Assembly: GCA_964585095.1 (NCBI GenBank)
Contig: CAZPCN010000012.1
Coordinates: 3,430 to 67,429 of the forward strand
DNA: 64,000 nucleotides
DNA from: an uncultured Syntrophaceae bacterium
GTDB lineage: Bacteria > Desulfobacterota > Syntrophia > Syntrophales > UBA2192
Direction of reading: 5' to 3'
Shown: positions 5,526 through 62,550 of the stretch, piece after piece
Numbering within the stretch: position 1 is the stretch's first letter
Layout of the letters: each line of letters opens with the position of its first letter
Notes under the pieces: model-generated
Databases searched by the model: none
What the model saw: only the letters and a program-made list of their open reading frames with translations
Told to the model about the DNA's origin: nothing
Position numbers and translations under genes: made by a program

Positions 5526-5628
<103 letters not shown>

Positions 5629-6927: not shown

Positions 6928-7022
6928 TGGCGGAGAGAGGGGGATTCGAACCCCCGGTGCACCTTTAAGGGGCGCACACACGATTTCCAGTCGTGCCCAT
7001 TCGGCCTCTCTGGCATCTCTCC
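6928..7022 (-). tRNA. tRNA-Ser (anticodon GGA)
   Basis: Acceptor GGAGAGA/TCTCTCC-G-CCA, anticodon arm CACGA-CTGGAAA-TCGTG, long variable arm, T-loop GGTTCGAATCC. Confidence 0.97.
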
Positions 7023-7222: not shown

Positions 7223-7317
7223 TGGCGGAGAGAGGGGGATTCGAACCCCCGTGAGAGCTGTTAGGCCCTCAAACCGATTTCGAGTCGGTCCCGTTATGAC
7301 CACTTCGGTATCTCTCC
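7223..7317 (-). tRNA. tRNA-Ser (anticodon CGA)
   Basis: Same acceptor stem, anticodon arm ACCGA-CTCGAAA-TCGGT, long variable arm, encoded CCA. Confidence 0.97.
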
Positions 7318-52936: not shown

Positions 52937-53033
52937 CGCCTGGCAGCCCTGCAGCCCTATCCCGCGTGTTCCCGGGACGTAGGCCATGAGGCTTTGCGCC
53001 CCATCCTTTCGGACGGTTTGCCCTTTTCAGGCG
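52937..53033 (-). ncRNA. Cyclic di-GMP-I (GEMM-I) riboswitch
   Basis: Minus strand CGCCTG-AAAA-GGGCAAACC-GTCC-GAAA-GGAT-GGGGCGCAAAGCC...GGGCTGC-CAGGCG: GNRA loop, conserved GGCAAACC and GCAAAGCC, P1 CGCCTG/CAGGCG. Confidence 0.9.
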
Positions 53034-53737: not shown

Positions 53738-56569
53738 TTACATTTTCATGACCGTGACGGCGTCCTCGAGGCTGATGACCCCCTGGAGCACCTTGTTGAT
53801 AGCGTCCTGCTTCAGCGGGCGGAAATTGCCGTCCCGCTCCGCGACGGTCTTGATCTCGGCCGCGTCGGCGCCCTTGAGGATCGCCTCCCGCAGCCCGTTG
53901 TCGTTTACGAGGATTTCGAAGAGGGCCGTGCGGCCCTTGAACCCCGTGTTCTTGCAGGCCGGGCAGCCCGCCCCGCGGAAGAACCGGCCGCCCGCCATCG
54001 ATTCCATGCCCAGGGAAGCCAGAACCTGCTCGGAGGGCTCGTAGGGTTCCCTGCAGGCGGGACAGATCGTCCGCACGAGCCTCTGCGCAATCGATGCCGA
54101 AAGGGCCGAGGCCAGCGGGAAGCGGTCCACCCCCATCTCGACGAGGCGGGCGATGGCGCCTGCCGCATCCGATGCCGGGAGGGTGCTGAGGAACCGGTGG
54201 CTCGAGAGGGCTGTCTGCACGGCAAGCGACGCCGACTCCCCGTCGCGGATTTCCTCGAGGTAGACCACGTCGGGGTCCTGCTTCAGGATCAGGCGCAGGT
54301 TCGCTGCCAGGGTCGCCCCGGCCGCCCGGTTGAATTCGATCTGGGTCACCCCCGCGATCGGGTATTTGACGGGGTCCTCCAGGGTGAAGATCTCCGCGTC
54401 GGGCGTCACCATCCGGCGGAGCATGGCGTACAGGGTGGTGCTCTTGCCGCTTCCCTCGGGGCCGGACACGACGACGAGCCCCTGCGGCTTCTCCAGGATG
54501 TCGCCGAGACTGTCGAGGTCCTTCGGGGAGAGGCCCAGCTGTTCCAGGCCGATGGAATTCGTGCTGAGATCCGTCAGGTGCAGGATGAGGCTTTCGCCGT
54601 GGATGCTCGGGATGGAGGAGACCTGGACGCTGATGTCCCGGTCCCCGACCTTCTCCACGAAGCGGCCCTCCTGGGGGACTCCGCGGACGCTCGAGTCGAT
54701 GTTGGCGATGTCCTTGACCCAGGTGATCACGGGGATCGACATGGACTTCGGCAGGTCCGGCAGGTCATGAGTCGATCCGTCGACGCGGAACCGGACGCGG
54801 ACGTTCTTCGTCTGCGGGGTGATGTGGATGTCCGTCGCTCCCTCGCGGACGGCCTGCGCGATCAGCGTTTCGATGAAGCGGTCCGCCGGGTCGCCGTTTT
54901 CGGGGCCTGAGGGCGCCGGGTTGGCGCGTTGTGACGCCGCGGCCGGCTGCTGGCGTGCCTCGGAGGAGTAGCTGCCGGCGGGCATGTCGTAGATGAGGCC
55001 CATGAGCCGGTCGAACTCGCGCTCGGTGCAGATCACCGGCGCAACCCCCTCTTCCGACTGCATCCTGAGCAGGTCGAGGGCGTAGCGATTGGTGGGGTCC
55101 GGCATGGCCACGACGAGGTGGCGGGCGGTCTTCCTCAACGGCGCTGCCTGGTACTTCCGGGCGAAATCCATGGGGATGAGCCTCGAGAGGCTCAGGTCGA
55201 CGGGGTACTTGTCGGGCAGATAGCGCTCGATCCGGAGCTGGTGGCTCAGGATGTCCACGATCTGGGAGTCCCGGAGGAACCCCTGCTGGACGAGAAGCTT
55301 GCCGAGCCGCAGCCCCGTATACCGCTGGGCCGCGAGGGCTTCCTCAAGCTGGCTTTCGTCGAGCAGCCGCGCTTCCATGAGCAGCTCGCCCAGCTTCTTC
55401 CACTGTCCGTCGACGACCTCCAGCTCCGTCGGCGCCGACTTTCCGGCCTCGAGCTCGGTGATGAACTCGGGGAAGTCGCCCTCGATCAGGGTCTGTTCCT
55501 TCGCCACCGATGCGGCCCTCAGGAGGATTTTCTCCAGCTCCGCCACGTTGCCCGGCCAGGTGTATTCGAGGAACCGGTCCATCACTTCCCGCGTGACGCC
55601 GTGGAGACCCTTGCGAAATTCCTGGTTGATGAGCTGGATGAAGTAGTCCACGAGCAGGGGGATGTCCTCCTTGCGCTCGCGAAGGGGCGGCACGTACAGG
55701 GTGACCACATTGAGACGGTAGTAGAGATCGTCCCGGAAGGTGCCTTCCTTGATCATTCCCCGGATGTCCCTGTCGGTCGAGGCGATGACCCGCGCGCCGA
55801 GCGGGAGCTTGTCACGGCCCCCGATGCGTTTGAATTCGCCCGTTTCGAGGACCCGCAGCAGGCGGGCCTGGAGGTTCAGGGGCAGAGCGGAGACCTGGTG
55901 CAGGTAGAGGGTGCCGTTGCCGGCCTCCTCGAATTTCCCGATCTTGCGGCTCGTGGCGCCCGTGTAGGACCCCTTTTCGTAGCCGAACAGCTCGGCTTCC
56001 AGGACCTGCTCCGCGAGGCCCTCGCAGTTGACGATTACGAAAGGCTCGTTCTTCGCCGTGAAATTGTGGAATGTCTTGGCCAGGAGCGACTTGCCCGTCC
56101 CCGTCTCGCCCAGGATGAGCACGGTGCGATCCTCGGGCCGGATCATCATGATCTGGTTGAAAAGAATGCGGACACGCTTGCCCTGGCCGATGAATTCCGG
56201 GAAGAGGACCTTCCCCTCCACCTTGCTCAGCAAGTCGCTGACCTGTTCGAAGACGACGTTGAACTCCTTCAGGTCGTCCCCCTTGCTCTTCGGCTTCCCG
56301 TTGCCCTGCCTCGACACGGCGGGGATGGATTTCATCTTCGCGATGAAGCTCTTCATCGGCTTCAGCAGGAGCCACGTGATGAGCAGCGCGCACAGGAAGG
56401 AAAACGCCCCGATCCCGATTCCCCACCATTTCAGGTACAGTTCCGGATTGGGGATCAGGTTCGTGTATTTCAGGATCTGGTGGGTCGTGATGACGGAAAG
56501 CAGGGCGATCCCGCCGAAGATGATCGGGACGAGGACGTAGAGACTGATGTTGAAGCGGGGGTGTTTCAT
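53738..56569 (-). CDS. Fusion: 2 TM, HAMP-like, sigma-54 activator AAA+ domain, MshEN, GspE/PilB-type ATPase (both ATPase domains degenerate)
   Basis: One uninterrupted 943-aa ORF: GETGTGKS, ELFGYEKGSYTGA, DLYYRLNV, WPGNVAEL; KLGELL...LAAQ...RLGKLLVQQG...LSHQ; ATDIHI, RFRVDG, PQEGR, GPEGSGKST, EDPV, QDPDVVYLEEIRD, CPAC x2. Confidence 0.88.
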   Translation of the reverse strand: MKHPRFNISLYVLVPIIFGGIALLSVITTHQILKYTNLIPNPELYLKWWGIGIGAFSFLCALLITWLLLKPMKSFIAKMKSIPAVSRQGNGKPKSKGDDLKEFNVVFEQVSDLLSKVEGKVLFPEFIGQGKRVRILFNQIMMIRPEDRTVLILGETGTGKSLLAKTFHNFTAKNEPFVIVNCEGLAEQVLEAELFGYEKGSYTGATSRKIGKFEEAGNGTLYLHQVSALPLNLQARLLRVLETGEFKRIGGRDKLPLGARVIASTDRDIRGMIKEGTFRDDLYYRLNVVTLYVPPLRERKEDIPLLVDYFIQLINQEFRKGLHGVTREVMDRFLEYTWPGNVAELEKILLRAASVAKEQTLIEGDFPEFITELEAGKSAPTELEVVDGQWKKLGELLMEARLLDESQLEEALAAQRYTGLRLGKLLVQQGFLRDSQIVDILSHQLRIERYLPDKYPVDLSLSRLIPMDFARKYQAAPLRKTARHLVVAMPDPTNRYALDLLRMQSEEGVAPVICTEREFDRLMGLIYDMPAGSYSSEARQQPAAASQRANPAPSGPENGDPADRFIETLIAQAVREGATDIHITPQTKNVRVRFRVDGSTHDLPDLPKSMSIPVITWVKDIANIDSSVRGVPQEGRFVEKVGDRDISVQVSSIPSIHGESLILHLTDLSTNSIGLEQLGLSPKDLDSLGDILEKPQGLVVVSGPEGSGKSTTLYAMLRRMVTPDAEIFTLEDPVKYPIAGVTQIEFNRAAGATLAANLRLILKQDPDVVYLEEIRDGESASLAVQTALSSHRFLSTLPASDAAGAIARLVEMGVDRFPLASALSASIAQRLVRTICPACREPYEPSEQVLASLGMESMAGGRFFRGAGCPACKNTGFKGRTALFEILVNDNGLREAILKGADAAEIKTVAERDGNFRPLKQDAINKVLQGVISLEDAVTVMKM

Positions 56570-59620: not shown

Positions 59621-59887
59621 ATGCTGTTCATGATGATTTGCACCTGGGATCCGCAAGACGAGCGCGAAGTCAGAACCAAACGGGCGAACTGGGAGTGGCC
59701 GAAGGAGGTGCGGGTGATCTCCGAGTACTATGACCTCCAGGGATGCAGGACCATCTACGTGGTCGACTGCGACGCCGTGGGCCTCATTGCCTGCCGTGCT
59801 GCCTGGATCAACCTGCTGATGTTCGAGATCTTCCCCGTCTGGCCCCTCGGGGCAACCAAGGATCTGGTGAAGAAACAGGGGACCTGA
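59621..59887 (+). CDS. DUF3303-like small protein
   Basis: MLFMMICTWDP...EYYDLQGCR...W...FEIFPV pattern; GGGAGGT RBS. Family assignment from memory. Confidence 0.65.
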   Translation: MLFMMICTWDPQDEREVRTKRANWEWPKEVRVISEYYDLQGCRTIYVVDCDAVGLIACRAAWINLLMFEIFPVWPLGATKDLVKKQGT

Positions 59888-59927: not shown

Positions 59928-60110
59928 ATGGCAACGCTGGAACTGACGTCTGAGGAGGAGAAGGAGCTTCTTTCCTTCATCGAGAGGTACTATCACGACC
60001 TGCGCGTCGAGATCGCCAATACGGATGACAAGGAATTCCGACGGAGCCTGAAACACAAGGAGGTCATCATCCGGACCATTCTGGATCGAATGAAGGTCAT
60101 GAACATATGA
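59928..60110 (+). CDS. Small conserved hypothetical helical protein
   Basis: LELTSEE...DLRVEIANTDDKEFR..LK.KE; AAGGAGGT RBS. Confidence 0.75.
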   Translation: MATLELTSEEEKELLSFIERYYHDLRVEIANTDDKEFRRSLKHKEVIIRTILDRMKVMNI

Positions 60111-60261
60111 GGGTTGCGGACCGGCTCCCCGGCCTGCAGCGCAGGAGGAGGCATCGCGGGGGGAATGTCATCTTCCCTCAGAGGAGAGCAACGCGCCGCG
60201 GCCCCGGGTCATTCAGCGCGAAGCATGAAGTCTTCGCCGAGCCCGGGGCGTGAGCCCGGAC

Positions 60262-60295
60262 AAAAAAAGACCCCGTTTTGCAACGGGGCTTTTTC
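60262..60295. terminator. Bidirectional intrinsic terminator (7 T on minus strand)
   Basis: AAAAAAAGACCCCG-TTTTGCAA-CGGGGCTTTTT. Confidence 0.75.
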
Positions 60296-60415
60296 TTACA
60301 GGGGGGGAGGGAGACGACCCTGTGCGGGTCGCCTCCCTGGAGGAGATCGTTAGTTTCTGGTTTTCCGTTTTGCGCTTTTCTCGGTTTCCTGTCACTCGAG
60401 CTGTCAATCGAGTTG
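60262..60415 (-). ncRNA. Candidate sigma-54-dependent small RNA (about 150 nt)
   Basis: Bounded by a sigma-54 promoter and a U7 terminator; no RBS-led ORF fits; hairpins CTCGA/TCGAG and GGGAGGCGACCC/GGGTCGTCTCCC. Confidence 0.55.
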
Positions 60416-60426
60416 ATTCTCAGTAT

Positions 60427-60442
60427 TGCACCTCCCGTGCCA
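60427..60442 (-). promoter_or_regulatory. Sigma-54 promoter pointing away from archease-rtcB
   Basis: Minus strand TGGCACG-GGAG-GTGCA with exact GG-N10-GC spacing; palindrome CATCGA-AAAA-TCGATG at 60573-60588 as a possible activator site. Confidence 0.75.
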
Positions 60443-60663
60443 CGGGCCAATTAATTTTCAACCAGTCGAATTCATTGTGAATATCGCTTTTCCCGCGACG
60501 CCCCGGCCAGGAAGAAGACGGCAACAAATGTCGAATTTCAAGGGGCCTGAAAATCCGGAATCTGTCGGCGGGCATCGAAAAATCGATGAAAAAGAGGTGG
60601 ATCGACAAAAATGACGAAAACAGACAGGCTTTCCGGTAACGACGAAAACCGGCGATCCTGCCA

Positions 60664-60693
60664 TTGACAGGCCTGTGCCCTTGTCACTAGAAT
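60664..60693 (+). promoter_or_regulatory. Sigma-70 promoter of archease-rtcB (probably leaderless)
   Basis: TTGACA-N18-TAGAAT, then 5 nt, then ATG at 60699; no SD sequence. Confidence 0.7.
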
Positions 60694-60698
60694 CGATC

Positions 60699-61115
60699 AT
60701 GAAGCCCTATAAAACTTTCGACCATACGGCCGACCTCGGTCTTACCGTCACGGGGCAGAGCGCGGGAGAACTTTACGCAAACGCGGCGGTTGCCGTTTTC
60801 GACATGATCACCGACCTCGGGCGCGTGGAACCCCGGGAGACCCGCCGGATCACCGTGGAGGGCGACAGCCCGGAGGATCTGATCATCAACTTCCTTCGCG
60901 AAATCCTTTACCTCTATAATGGGGAACGCTGGCTGCTCAGGGAAATCCGTGTCACGATGATCGGGGACACAGGGATCGAGGCCGAGGTCTTCGGGGAGCC
61001 CCTCGATCTGCAGAAGCACGAGATATGCAAAGAAATCAAGGCAGTAACCTATCACCAGGCCAGTGTGCGCAAGGTGCCGGGGGGCTGGGAGGCAAGGGTG
61101 ATCTTCGATGTCTGA
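60699..61115 (+). CDS. Archease (RtcB activator)
   Basis: YKTFDHTADLG, IKAVTYHQ, ARVIFDV; overlaps the rtcB start. Confidence 0.95.
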   Translation: MKPYKTFDHTADLGLTVTGQSAGELYANAAVAVFDMITDLGRVEPRETRRITVEGDSPEDLIINFLREILYLYNGERWLLREIRVTMIGDTGIEAEVFGEPLDLQKHEICKEIKAVTYHQASVRKVPGGWEARVIFDV

Positions 61116-62550
61116 CGTAAAGCTGCGCCGTCTCGACGAGTTCCGCTGGGAAGTGCCGAAGCAGGGCGCCATGCGCGTCCCGGGGATCATCTACGCCAGC
61201 GGGAAGCTCATGAAGGCCATGGGACAGGACGAAAGCCCGAAACAGGTGGCCAACGTGGCCCAGCTGCCGGGGATCGTGAAGAACTCGCTGGCCATGCCGG
61301 ACATGCACTGGGGTTACGGATTCCCCATCGGCGGCGTGGCCGCCTTTGACATGGAGGGCGGCGTCGTGTCGCCGGGAGGTGTGGGCTACGACATCAACTG
61401 CGGCTGCCGCCTCATGATGACGAACCTCCTCCGCGAGGACGTGCGGCCCAAGCTGGAGAAGATCGTCAACGCCCTCTTCCACCACGTGCCCTCGGGCGTG
61501 GGCTCGAGAGGGTCCCTCAAGCTGCCCCGGGCCGAAGAGAAAAAGGTCCTCGTCGAGGGGGCCCGGTGGGCCGTGAGCAACGGTTACGGATCGCAGGGCG
61601 ACCTGGACTCCATGGAGGACGGGGGCTGCCTTACCGGGGCCGACCCCGAGGCGGTCAGCGAGCGCGCCCTCGAGAGGGGGAAGGACCAGGTGGGCACCCT
61701 CGGGTCTGGCAACCACTTCCTCGAAGTCGAGGTGGTCGAGGAGATCTTCGACCGGGACGCGGCCGCCGCCCTCGGGATCGAGGAGGGCCGGGTGGCCGTC
61801 ATGGTCCACAGCGGCTCGCGGGGCCTCGGGCACCAGGTCTGCGACGACTACCTGGCCAAGCTGGTCAAGCACGTCGACCGGCTGGGGATCACCCTTCCCG
61901 ACAGGCAGCTTGCCTGCGCCTACATCCAGTCCCCGGAAGGACGCCAGTACCTCTCGGCCATGGCCTGCGCGGCCAACTACGCCTGGGCCAACCGGCAGAT
62001 GCTCATGCACTGGACGGGCGAGGCCCTCGAGCGCGCCCTCGGAATGAGCCCCCGCGACTTGGGCATGCGCCTCGTCTACGACGTCTGCCACAACATCGCC
62101 AAGATCGAGGAGCACGTCGTGGACGGCAAGCGGATGACCCTCTGCGTTCACCGCAAGGGGGCCACGCGCGCCTTCCCCCCGGGGCACCCGGCGCTGCCGG
62201 CGAAGTACCGCAAGACGGGCCAGCCCGTTCTGATCCCCGGTGACATGGGCACGGGCTCCTACGTGCTCGTGGGGACCGAGAAGGCCATGGAGCAGACCTT
62301 CGGGAGCACCTGCCACGGCGCGGGGCGCGTGCTGAGCCGGGCCGCGGCGATCAAGGCAAGCAGGGGCCGCGCGATCGGCCGCGAGATGGAGGACCGCGGG
62401 GTCCTCGTCATGGCCGCCGCCAAGGGCACCCTGGCCGAGGAGATCCCCGAGGCCTACAAGAACATCGACGAGGTCGTCAACGTCGTCCACGGCGCGGGGC
62501 TCTCCCGCAAGGTAGCACGGCTCAAGGCCATCGGCTGCATCAAGGGGTAG
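61108..62550 (+). CDS. rtcB: RNA-splicing/repair ligase RtcB
   Basis: MPDMHWGYGFPIGG, GYDINCG, GTLGSGNHF, HSGSRG, HNIA, HRKGA, STCHGAGR, EAYK. Confidence 0.97.
   Translation: MSDVKLRRLDEFRWEVPKQGAMRVPGIIYASGKLMKAMGQDESPKQVANVAQLPGIVKNSLAMPDMHWGYGFPIGGVAAFDMEGGVVSPGGVGYDINCGCRLMMTNLLREDVRPKLEKIVNALFHHVPSGVGSRGSLKLPRAEEKKVLVEGARWAVSNGYGSQGDLDSMEDGGCLTGADPEAVSERALERGKDQVGTLGSGNHFLEVEVVEEIFDRDAAAALGIEEGRVAVMVHSGSRGLGHQVCDDYLAKLVKHVDRLGITLPDRQLACAYIQSPEGRQYLSAMACAANYAWANRQMLMHWTGEALERALGMSPRDLGMRLVYDVCHNIAKIEEHVVDGKRMTLCVHRKGATRAFPPGHPALPAKYRKTGQPVLIPGDMGTGSYVLVGTEKAMEQTFGSTCHGAGRVLSRAAAIKASRGRAIGREMEDRGVLVMAAAKGTLAEEIPEAYKNIDEVVNVVHGAGLSRKVARLKAIGCIKG

What the first reader, a model, noticed from the sequence alone, without database searches (positions are those of the whole stretch)
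60262..60442. Candidate sigma-54-dependent small RNA divergent from archease-rtcB
Seen: an exact-spacing sigma-54 promoter on the minus strand, a palindrome about 130-145 nt upstream and a U7 terminator about 150 nt downstream, with no RBS-led ORF between. The RNA would contain a 5' hairpin (CUCGA/UCGAG), an unstructured A-rich tract of about five imperfect repeats (CAGGAAAC, CGAGAAAAG, CGCAAAAC, GGAAAAC, CAGAAAC), a 12-bp hairpin and two anti-SD-like C-rich stretches (GAUCUCCUCC, CUCCCUCCCCCCC). Established: enterobacterial rtcB operons are sigma-54/RtcR-driven and can include Y RNAs; A-rich tracts bind Hfq; GGA motifs bind CsrA. Inference: an undescribed sRNA acting by RBS pairing or protein sponging, possibly tied to RNA-damage stress. 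It has no tRNA-like T-loop, so it is not YrlA-like.
Basis: partly seen in the sequence, partly recalled or inferred. Interest (0 to 1): 0.75.

Follow-up and report, generated by a model that had tools for sequence, protein, structure and literature searches.

The report
Conserved sigma-54-driven small RNA in Syntrophaceae
This stretch holds a previously undescribed gene for a small RNA of about 155 bases, conserved in uncultured syntrophic sludge and sediment bacteria, switched on by a sigma-54 promoter and probably acting by pairing with ribosome-binding sites; its position next to the RNA-repair genes looks incidental.

Summary
On the minus strand there is an exact sigma-54 promoter (60442-60427), a predicted start near 60416, and a terminator with a U7 tail (60289-60262). 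The RNA would be about 155 nt with no credible ORF.

It is far more than chance. Full-length copies with promoter and terminator occur in all 12 related Syntrophaceae genomes and in 45 of 46 metagenome contigs found by a motif search. That gives 44 distinct sequences.

Three hairpins are supported: 97.7% of cells pair and five pairs show changes on both sides. The linker varies in sequence and length, while AACGAUCUCCUCC-[hairpin]-CCCCCCC is nearly invariant.

Two upstream elements are present in 44 of 44 sequences, at about -119 and -201 in the window. Across lineages their distance to the promoter shifts in steps of about 11 bp.

No Rfam family matches. Eight contigs from a lower-GC lineage carry the promoter-RNA unit without archease-rtcB, so the suggested RNA-repair link is not supported.

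RNA-derived contigs contain the sequence, but they carry no strand or end information.

Best reading: a new family of sigma-54-dependent trans-acting sRNA with anti-Shine-Dalgarno-like seeds. The activator protein and the targets are unknown.

The parts
60262..60416 (-). Predicted sRNA of about 155 nt (start about 60416-60414, 3' end in the U-tract 60268-60262)
   Evidence: The start is inferred from the -12 GC at 60429/60428. The covariance model R1 matches 60258-60416 at 166 bits, the only copy in the window. nhmmer finds full-length homologues in 12 genome loci and 45 metagenome loci. Fold z = -6.2.
60427..60442 (-). Sigma-54 promoter TGGCAC-N5-GTGCA (-24 GG, -12 GC)
   Evidence: Only exact match in the window, 0.07 expected. 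GGCA[CT]-N5-(G/C/A)TGCA is present in every homologue, 11-12 nt before the RNA model start.
60519..60535 (-). Proximal conserved upstream element TTCGACATTTGTTGCCG (candidate enhancer/activator site, about -119 to -103)
   Evidence: Unique in the window. Present with at most 1 mismatch in 44 of 44 distinct upstream regions, in both genomic contexts. Its position falls into classes of about -108, -119 and -130.
60602..60617 (-). Distal conserved upstream element TCGTCATTTTTGTCGA (candidate enhancer site, about -201 to -186)
   Evidence: Unique in the window. Its CGNCANTTTTGTC core is present in 44 of 44, about 79-83 bp upstream of the proximal element.
60664..60670 (-). Conserved CTGTCAA, the reverse complement of the archease -35 TTGACAG
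   Evidence: TGTCAA is present in 41 of 44 upstream regions, including the contigs that lack archease. It is the -35 of the sigma-70-like promoter found.
60573..60588 (-).
   Evidence: Present in the window but not conserved in the upstream alignment. Probably not the enhancer.
60394..60413 (-). P1: 5' hairpin ACUCGA/UCGAGU with conserved loop (U/C)GACAGC
   Evidence: 99.2% of cells pair. The closing pair is seen as UG, CG, UA and AU.
60352..60393 (-). Unstructured A-rich linker (57% A); sequence and length vary (40-49 nt); the only near-invariant part is GGAAACCGA
   Evidence: Mean pairwise identity 71% and 6 invariant columns. A-R-N periodicity is not above composition in the window.
60339..60351 (-). 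Seed 1: single-stranded AACGAUCUCCUCC (anti-SD-like; GAUCUCCUCC resembles the 16S rRNA 3' end GAUCACCUCC)
   Evidence: Invariant in the 13 sequences found independently of the motif. Unpaired in the minimum-free-energy and consensus folds. The 16S comparison rests on general knowledge.
60308..60338 (-). P2: 13-bp hairpin AGGGAGGCGACCC / GGGUCGUCUCCCU, loop 60325-60321
   Evidence: 99.5% of cells pair. Changes seen are A-U to G-C, G.U to G-C, and C-G to U.G to U-A. Close relatives in RNA runs differ only in the loop, at 60322 and 60325.
60301..60307 (-). Seed 2: single-stranded C7 run, continuing the CUCCCU of the P2 3' arm (CUCCCUCCCCCCC)
   Evidence: Invariant. Unpaired in the consensus fold.
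60262..60289 (-). Intrinsic terminator (stem 60289-60270, U7 60268-60262); bidirectional, so it also ends the convergent DUF3303-p60 operon
   Evidence: One search finds it on both strands. It is conserved, with 3 pairs changed on both sides.

Best explanation
The region is an autonomous gene for a trans-acting regulatory RNA of about 155 nt, found in uncultured Syntrophaceae (Syntrophales, Desulfobacterota).

Proposed mechanism:
1. A still unidentified enhancer-binding protein binds two conserved upstream elements (about -119 and -201 in the window). It activates sigma-54 RNA polymerase at the -24/-12 promoter.
2. Transcription starts near 60416 and stops at the U7 terminator.
3. The RNA folds into a protective 5' hairpin, a flexible A-rich linker, a 13-bp central hairpin and the terminator.
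4. This leaves two invariant C/U-rich stretches single-stranded: AACGAUCUCCUCC and CCCCCCC, the latter continuing the CUCCCU of the central hairpin's 3' arm. They are complementary to purine-rich Shine-Dalgarno regions.
5. The RNA most likely pairs with the ribosome-binding sites of particular mRNAs elsewhere in the genome and lowers their translation when the activator's signal is present.

Shown by comparison: the gene, promoter, structure, upstream elements and independence from its neighbours. Inferred: the exact 5' end, dependence on sigma-54 and an activator, pairing with ribosome-binding sites, and the targets.
For: - Promoter: exact and unique in 64 kb, 0.07 expected. It is kept at fixed spacing in all homologues.
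- Terminator: present. There is no same-strand gene downstream in the window; the next genes converge.
- Homologues: found in 12 of 12 Syntrophaceae genomes whose archease is at least 71% identical, and in 45 of 46 motif-selected metagenome contigs.
- Structure: 97.7% of cells pair, 5 pairs change on both sides, 0 of 500 shuffles reach the observed values, and slid controls pair only 40-51%.
- Mosaic conservation typical of an RNA gene: seed-P2-seed 92% pairwise identity, linker 71%, spacer 55%, while the neighbouring archease protein is only 71-78% identical.
- Upstream elements: present in 44 of 44, at distances that change in steps of about 11 bp (-108, -119, -130), which keeps helical phase with the promoter. 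An IHF-like site at about -57 is in 26 of 44.
- Autonomy: the same promoter-RNA unit occurs in a second genomic context.
- Expression: RNA-derived contigs hold it in many metatranscriptomes. In one 46-Mb run it is the only part of 3.3 kb recovered. In four sediment runs the contigs end within -37 to +31 of the predicted start, with essentially no coverage of the region upstream.
- Precedent: sigma-54-dependent non-coding RNAs are known in Desulfovibrio vulgaris (PMC4641369, PMC3333781).
Against: - No strand-specific reads and no mapped 5' or 3' ends. Several RNA-run contigs also cover the promoter and the flanking genes, so contaminating DNA or read-through cannot be excluded.
- No DNA-binding activator gene is nearby. 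The only sigma-54 activator domain in the window sits in a 943-aa fusion protein without an HTH.
- No convincing target was found in the DNA at hand. Complementary 9-10-mers are mostly ordinary Glu-Glu-Ile codons or generic SD sequences.
- CCUCC would pair with almost any SD, so specificity is unexplained.
- Invariance of the outer P2 arms in the metagenome set is partly forced by the search pattern. Only the 13 genome-derived sequences are unbiased there.
Confidence: 0.6

Rival explanations
1. Protein-sequestering RNA. The A-rich linker and GGA motifs would bind and titrate Hfq or CsrA, in the manner of CrcZ or CsrB, rather than pair with mRNAs.
For: The linker is 57% A and unstructured. AGGAAACCGA is nearly invariant. 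There is a U-rich 3' tail. CrcZ is also sigma-54-dependent (PMC6292655 title/abstract; general knowledge). Some relatives show weakly enriched in-frame A-R-N triplets.
Against: In the window, A-R-N triplets equal the composition expectation (7 against 7.16), and family-wide enrichment is small (9.2 against 7.9). There are only 2-3 GGA motifs and none in a hairpin loop. The linker is the least conserved transcribed part, whereas the C-rich stretches are invariant. Whether these genomes have hfq or csrA is unknown.
Confidence: 0.12
2. Cis-acting element. Sigma-54-driven transcription either reads through the terminator as antisense RNA against the convergent DUF3303-p60 operon, or serves as a regulated 5' leader for a downstream gene.
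For: The terminator is shared with the convergent operon, and the p60 stop lies only 14-28 nt from the RNA's 3' end in many lineages. In the low-GC lineage a 76-aa gene follows on the same strand behind a weaker terminator. In one sediment run the deepest contig spans the sRNA, p60 and DUF3303 together.
Against: The strong terminator with U7-8 is conserved in the main lineage. The window has no same-strand gene downstream. Invariant internal sequence motifs are not needed for mere antisense transcription. The unit keeps its sequence in two unrelated contexts.
Confidence: 0.1
3. RNA-repair accessory RNA. It would be functionally tied to archease-RtcB, as a substrate, guide or regulator, analogous to the Y RNAs in enterobacterial rsr-yrlBA-rtcBA operons.
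For: It lies divergently next to archease-rtcB in every main-lineage locus. rtcB carries two conserved GAGGAGAUC sites complementary to seed 1.
Against: Eight contigs have the unit without archease-rtcB. The whole neighbourhood is syntenic, so linkage is not specific. There is no Y-RNA or tRNA-like match. Archease-rtcB has its own sigma-70-type promoter. No homologue lies next to archease in 30 other Desulfobacterota loci. The rtcB sites are Glu-Glu-Ile codons, which are common elsewhere.
Confidence: 0.05
4. Not an RNA gene. Conservation would reflect DNA-level signals: operator sites for the divergent and convergent genes plus a shared terminator.
For: The hexamer T(C/T)GACA recurs in the upstream elements and in the P1 loop. 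No strand-resolved transcript is available.
Against: Compensatory changes keep three hairpins. The sigma-54 promoter sits at fixed spacing from the conserved block. The block is kept in a different gene context. RNA-run contigs contain it.
Confidence: 0.05
5. A small protein-coding transcript.
For: TTG-initiated ORFs of 64 and 90 aa overlap the region.
Against: They have no SD and run through the terminator. Linker indels of 40-49 nt break the frame, and the UUG is UCG in many relatives. No start codon follows the internal AGGGAGG.
Confidence: 0.02

Closest known systems
Sigma-54-dependent non-coding RNAs of Desulfovibrio vulgaris Hildenborough (e.g. Dv_sRNA2 under response regulator DVU0679; 4 ncRNAs in the sigma-54 regulome; PMC3333781, PMC4641369)
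   Same: Same phylum-level group. They are stand-alone small transcription units with a -24/-12 promoter and conserved activator sites, and their function is unknown.
   Different: Those lie next to their NtrC-type activator gene; here no DNA-binding activator gene is nearby. No sequence comparison was possible, because those sequences were not in hand. No Rfam model matched.
Other sigma-54-dependent sRNAs: Qrr1-5 (LuxO), GlmY (GlrR/QseF), CrcZ/CrcY (CbrB), NrsZ (NtrC), Pxr of Myxococcus (general knowledge; PMC10162802, PMC7073468, PMC6292655)
   Same: Activator-dependent sigma-54 promoter, short RNA and intrinsic terminator. Qrr RNAs pair with mRNA 5' regions; CrcZ has A-rich tracts.
   Different: No Rfam hit to any of them. 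The seed here is C/U-rich and anti-SD-like, unlike the Qrr seed. A-rich periodicity of the CrcZ type is not significant.
Anti-SD-motif sRNAs: Betaproteobacteria toxic sRNA (RF02278), alpha-r14/NfeR1 and CcsR 'cuckoo' RNAs (CCUCCUCCC motifs), RsaE/RoxS (C-rich motifs)
   Same: Repeated C/U-rich motifs complementary to SD sequences, placed ahead of an intrinsic terminator. The expected mode is blocking of ribosome-binding sites.
   Different: RF02278 scores 19.2 bits against a gathering score of 50 (E = 2.4), mostly on the terminator. In those families the motifs sit in hairpin loops. Here one lies in a single-stranded linker and the other spans the 3' arm and tail of a hairpin. The promoter type also differs.
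Y RNA / YrlA-YrlB of enterobacterial rsr-rtcBA operons
   Same: A small RNA next to rtcB.
   Different: It is divergent rather than in the operon. It has no tRNA-like module and no Ro-binding stem. It is also found without rtcB.

Membership tests
Sigma-54-dependent transcription unit | -24 GG and -12 GC elements with exact spacing (TGGCAC-N5-TTGCW) | tested here: met
   TGGCACGGGAGGTGCA at 60442-60427, exact, 0.07 expected. Conserved in all homologues.
Sigma-54-dependent transcription unit | Upstream activator (enhancer) sites about 80-200 bp upstream | tested here: met
   Two elements are conserved in 44 of 44, in both contexts, with spacing classes of about 11 bp. Binding by a protein was not tested.
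Sigma-54-dependent transcription unit | A cognate enhancer-binding protein and dependence on RpoN | not testable with these tools
   The only Sigma54_activat domain in the window is in a 943-aa protein without an HTH. No genetics is possible.
Sigma-54-dependent transcription unit | IHF site between enhancer and promoter (frequent, not obligatory) | tested here: inconclusive
   WATCAANNNNTTR with at most 1 mismatch at about -57 in 26 of 44 relatives, but not in the window's own sequence.
Trans-acting base-pairing sRNA | Discrete short transcript with defined 5' and 3' ends | tested here: inconclusive
   Promoter and terminator predict 155 nt. RNA-run contigs contain it and often end near the predicted start, but they have no strand or end resolution and some cover the flanks.
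Trans-acting base-pairing sRNA | Conserved single-stranded seed and conserved structure | tested here: met
   Invariant unpaired AACGAUCUCCUCC and C7. Three hairpins with covariation.
Trans-acting base-pairing sRNA | Identified mRNA targets with conserved complementarity | tested here: inconclusive
   Only 64 kb plus short loci were available. Hits are generic SD sequences or common codons.
Hfq-binding class II sRNA / CrcZ-like Hfq sponge | Repeated in-frame A-R-N triplets plus a 3' U-tail | tested here: not met
   The U7 tail is present. A-R-N count in the window is 7 against 7.16 expected. Only some relatives are weakly enriched.
CsrB/RsmZ-type CsrA sponge | Many GGA motifs, mostly in hairpin loops | tested here: not met
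   2-3 GGA motifs, none in a loop of the supported structure.
Betaproteobacteria toxic sRNA (RF02278) and every other Rfam 15 family | Score at or above the family's gathering threshold | tested here: not met
   The best hits score 15-21 bits against thresholds of 40-114 and are driven by the terminator. The gathering-level scan of the window gives none at this locus.
Y RNA / YrlA | tRNA-like domain and Ro-binding helix; encoded within an rsr/rtcB operon | tested here: not met
   No tRNA-like hit and no Rfam hit. It is divergent from rtcB and also occurs without it.

The most novel reading that the evidence does not exclude
The RNA would be a mimic of the 16S rRNA 3' end. GAUCUCCUCC resembles GAUCACCUCC, and P2 looks like an internal SD:anti-SD-like helix. 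When induced through sigma-54 it would compete broadly for Shine-Dalgarno sequences and shift translation towards SD-less or leaderless mRNAs. One such mRNA may be the divergently encoded archease-rtcB, whose conserved TTGACA-N17/18-TAGAAT is followed after 5-6 nt by ATG with no SD. This would be a global translation-reprogramming sRNA rather than a gene-specific one.
Probability: 0.06. Interest if true: 0.85.

Novelty: new member of a known kind. Interest (0 to 1): 0.5.

Why it matters
Syntrophaceae are key syntrophic degraders of fatty acids and alkanes in digesters and sediments, and they cannot be studied genetically. Almost nothing is known about their post-transcriptional regulation.

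This is a well-delimited, strongly conserved RNA regulator with a complete sigma-54 control region. It gives a concrete handle in three ways. It could seed a new Rfam family. Its expression can be read directly from existing metatranscriptomes as a reporter of an unknown signalling pathway. Its invariant seeds allow target prediction across MAGs.

It also adds a case to the little-studied sigma-54-dependent RNAs of Desulfobacterota. It is not a new principle of regulation.

Tried and rejected
- Rfam at permissive E-values over 58-64 kb, and at gathering scores over the whole window: nothing at the locus.
- A-R-N (Hfq distal-face) periodicity in the linker: not above composition in the window.
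- Target search 1: duplex energies against 470 SD-preceded starts in the window gave only G-rich chance sites.
- Target search 2: start regions of the eight syntenic neighbour genes showed only generic SD sequences.
- Target search 3: 9-10-mer complements across about 1 Mb of loci were mostly GAG-GAG-ATC codons. The first run was swamped by the locus's own antisense and was redone.
- Pairing with the conserved leader of the 943-aa activator-domain gene: no better than shuffled sequence.
- Remote homologues next to archease in about 30 other Desulfobacterota loci, searched with the covariance model: none. The L049 and L115 hits are chance.
- RNA runs: eight groups of Logan contigs were laid on three variants. 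They show presence but no strand, no local depth and no ends. Several contig breaks probably reflect strain branching in the assembly graph, not transcript ends. No raw-read run was offered.
- Literature: no paper on Syntrophus or Syntrophaceae sRNAs.
- The 943-aa protein as the activator: not supported, since it has no DNA-binding domain and is merely syntenic.

Full report
**What is in the sequence.** Read on the minus strand, 60442-60427 is TGGCAC-GGGAG-GTGCA. This is an exact sigma-54 -24/-12 promoter and the only exact match to TGGCACN6TGCW in the 64-kb window, where 0.07 are expected from shuffles. With the -12 C at 60428, the start falls at about 60416-60414. An intrinsic terminator follows, with stem 60289-60270 and U7 at 60268-60262. 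It scores on both strands. The RNA of about 155 nt folds at -60.5 kcal/mol, z = -6.2 against dinucleotide shuffles. The fold has a 5' hairpin (60413-60394), an unpaired A-rich tract, a 13-bp hairpin (60338-60326 with 60320-60308) and the terminator.

**Context.** The organism is an uncultured member of Syntrophaceae (Syntrophales) from wastewater, sludge and sediment. Downstream of the RNA, the plus-strand genes DUF3303 (59621-59887) and a 60-aa ORF (59928-60110) converge on the same terminator. Upstream, archease (60699-61115) and RtcB (61108-62550) diverge. No same-strand gene follows the RNA. Archease has its own sigma-70-type promoter, TTGACA-18-TAGAAT at 60664-60693. There is no sigma-54 promoter on the plus strand.

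**Conservation.** A search of one genome per species with the archease protein returned 59 loci. nhmmer found the RNA at the same place and orientation in all 12 Syntrophaceae loci whose archease is 71-95% identical. It found none in the more distant loci. In the resulting alignment the promoter, P1, AACGATCTCCTCCAGGGAGGCGAC, GTCGTCTCCCTCCCCCC and the terminator are invariant or nearly so. The A-rich tract varies.

A metagenome scan for TCTCCTCCAGGGAGG-N14-34-CTCCCTCCCC gave 46 contigs. Forty-five of them carry a full-length homologue, with a GGCA[CT]-N5-[GCA]TGCA promoter 11-12 nt before the RNA. The 46th is a chance match. Together this makes 44 distinct sequences.

One caveat applies. The 25 bases of the search pattern are invariant by construction in the metagenome set. 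Their invariance is meaningful only in the 13 sequences found through archease.

**Structure.** On the 44 sequences the three-hairpin model pairs in 97.7% of cells. Five pairs show changes on both sides, and 0 of 500 shuffles reach the observed values. Slid controls pair in only 40-51% of cells.
- The closing pair of P1 occurs as U-G, C-G, U-A and A-U.
- In the part of P2 that the search pattern did not constrain, A-U becomes G-C, G.U becomes G-C, and C-G goes through U.G to U-A.
- RNAalifold recovers the same helices.

Conservation is mosaic, as expected for an RNA gene. The seed-P2-seed block has 92% mean pairwise identity, the linker 71% and the spacer before the terminator 55%. The neighbouring archease protein is only 71-78% identical in most of these genomes.

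A covariance model finds one copy in the window (166 bits). It finds nothing credible beside archease in about 30 other Desulfobacterota loci.

**Coding.** Coding is unlikely. Linker lengths run from 40 to 49 nt, the UUG of the overlapping ORF is UCG in many relatives, and no start codon follows the internal AGGGAGG.

**Control region.** Aligning 330 nt upstream shows two elements present in 44 of 44 distinct sequences. One is TTCGACAwTTrTTGCCG (window 60535-60519). The other is TCGTCAwTTTTGTCrA (60617-60602), about 79-83 bp further upstream. Each is unique in the window.

The start of the proximal element lies at -108/-109, -119/-120 or -129 to -132 in different lineages. These are steps of about one helical turn, which is what a looping enhancer that must stay in phase with the promoter would show.

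An IHF-like WATCAAN4TTR site with at most one mismatch lies at about -57 in 26 of 44 sequences, though not in the window itself. The hexamer T(C/T)GACA recurs in both elements, in a third conserved CTGTCAA (60670-60664, also the archease -35) and in the P1 loop. I cannot say what that means.

No DNA-binding activator gene is nearby. The only sigma-54 interaction domain in the window is in a 943-aa protein that lacks an HTH.

**Link to rtcB.** In the main lineage the whole neighbourhood is syntenic: the 943-aa gene, a 143-aa gene, an S1-domain gene, glutaredoxin, DUF3303, p60, the sRNA, archease and rtcB. Adjacency therefore carries no specific information.

Eight metagenome contigs with much lower G+C (43-51% against 55-63%) carry the same enhancer-promoter-RNA unit with none of these genes. 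There it is followed on the same strand by a 76-aa gene of unknown family, and one contig has a phage-type integrase nearby. The unit is thus autonomous, and the RNA-repair connection is not supported. It has no tRNA-like or Y-RNA features.

**Expression.** Only assembled contigs of public runs were available, without strand, ends or local depth.
- Sludge metatranscriptomes contain a close variant that differs within the RNA only at two loop positions (60322, 60325). Several of these contigs also cover the promoter and the flanks.
- In one 46-Mb run the only contig on 3.3 kb is 60251-60395.
- The L016 variant is held completely in at least 14 metatranscriptomes. In one of them the RNA side and the archease side are covered, but the enhancer region between them is not.
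- In four sediment runs the contigs over the L103 variant end at -37, -4, +15 and +31 relative to the predicted start. The region upstream is essentially uncovered.

This fits a transcript that begins at the predicted promoter but does not prove it. Some contig breaks probably reflect strain branching in the assembly graph.

**Mechanism.** The two invariant single-stranded stretches are complementary to purine-rich Shine-Dalgarno sequences. Seed 1 (GAUCUCCUCC) differs at one base from the canonical 16S rRNA 3' end GAUCACCUCC (general knowledge). The simplest reading is a trans-acting sRNA that blocks ribosome-binding sites. I give about 0.85 to "genuine sigma-54-type sRNA gene" and about 0.5-0.6 to this mode of action, hence 0.6 overall.

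Tests of the alternatives:
- In-frame A-R-N triplets in the linker are not above composition in the window (7 against 7.16) and only weakly so family-wide.
- GGA motifs are few and not in loops.
- Target searches in the available DNA gave only generic SD sequences and common codons.

Targets, activator and signal remain unknown.

**Comparison with known systems.** No Rfam 15 family matches. The best hits, including the Betaproteobacteria toxic sRNA with its CCUCC motifs, score 15-21 bits against thresholds of 40 or more and align mainly to the terminator.

In kind it belongs with the sigma-54-dependent sRNAs: Qrr, GlmY, CrcZ, NrsZ and Pxr. Within Desulfobacterota, four non-coding RNAs belong to the Desulfovibrio vulgaris sigma-54 regulome, and their functions are also unknown (PMC4641369, PMC3333781). 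In seed design it resembles the anti-SD-motif sRNAs. No paper on Syntrophaceae sRNAs was found.

I therefore class it as a new member (a new family) of a known kind. It is of moderate interest, mainly as a tractable entry into regulation in uncultured syntrophs.

Noticed in passing
window 56938-56700 (minus strand): A second sigma-54-type promoter, TGGTACATTTCGTGCA (56938-56923). It is conserved in 18 of 18 distinct relatives, 307-385 nt upstream of the 943-aa gene. A strongly conserved leader of about 200 nt follows, with blocks such as GGAGAACGAGTCCGATAAACGGAA and AAATCATACTGGCGTCGTATTGCAAAAC. No Rfam match. This is a candidate structured leader or a second sigma-54 RNA.
   Followed up: partly
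window 53738-56569 (minus strand): A 943-aa protein fuses two N-terminal hydrophobic segments (judged by eye from the sequence, not run through a predictor), a sigma-54 interaction AAA+ domain (GSYTGA loop), an AAA lid, an MshEN domain and a T2SSE/PilB-type ATPase. It has no DNA-binding domain. MshEN is known as a c-di-GMP-binding domain (general knowledge). The architecture is unusual, and the protein is 79-96% identical across the full-length or long matches in relatives.
   Followed up: partly
window 52939-53032 (minus strand): A c-di-GMP-I riboswitch (67.5 bits against a gathering score of 35), about 700 nt downstream of the MshEN-domain gene on the same strand.
   Followed up: no
window 60664-60701 (plus strand): Archease is preceded by a conserved TTGACA-N17/18-TAGAAT. 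The ATG follows only 5-6 nt after the -10, and there is no Shine-Dalgarno in most of the 14 lineages compared (two diverge in the -10). This suggests a leaderless archease-rtcB mRNA. However, RNA-run contigs on the L016 variant begin at least 116 nt upstream of the ATG. Unresolved.
   Followed up: partly
L075, L081, L082, L086, L095, L099, L109, L110: A low-GC lineage or island (43-51% G+C) carries the same enhancer-promoter-sRNA unit in a different context. A conserved 76-aa ORF (MTKCEFQ...) follows on the same strand, with SD AGGAGGAGA. A stand-alone receiver-domain gene lies upstream in L075 and L095, and a phage-type integrase lies in L095.
   Followed up: partly
window 60664-60670, 60602-60607, 60529-60534, 60401-60407 (minus-strand reading): The hexamer T(C/T)GACA, or its complement, recurs at four conserved positions: the far-upstream CTGTCAA, both candidate enhancer elements, and the loop of the RNA's 5' hairpin. 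This hints at a shared DNA-binding factor, or at a site downstream of the start.
   Followed up: no
window 61738 and 62437 (plus strand, inside rtcB): Two GAGGAGATC sites complementary to seed 1 are conserved in rtcB of many relatives. They encode Glu-Glu-Ile, and the same 9-mer is common in other genes, so this is probably chance.
   Followed up: yes
window 5527-5624, 6928-7022, 7223-7317 (minus strand): Ordinary RNA genes: small SRP RNA, tRNA-Ser(GGA) and tRNA-Ser(CGA).
   Followed up: no
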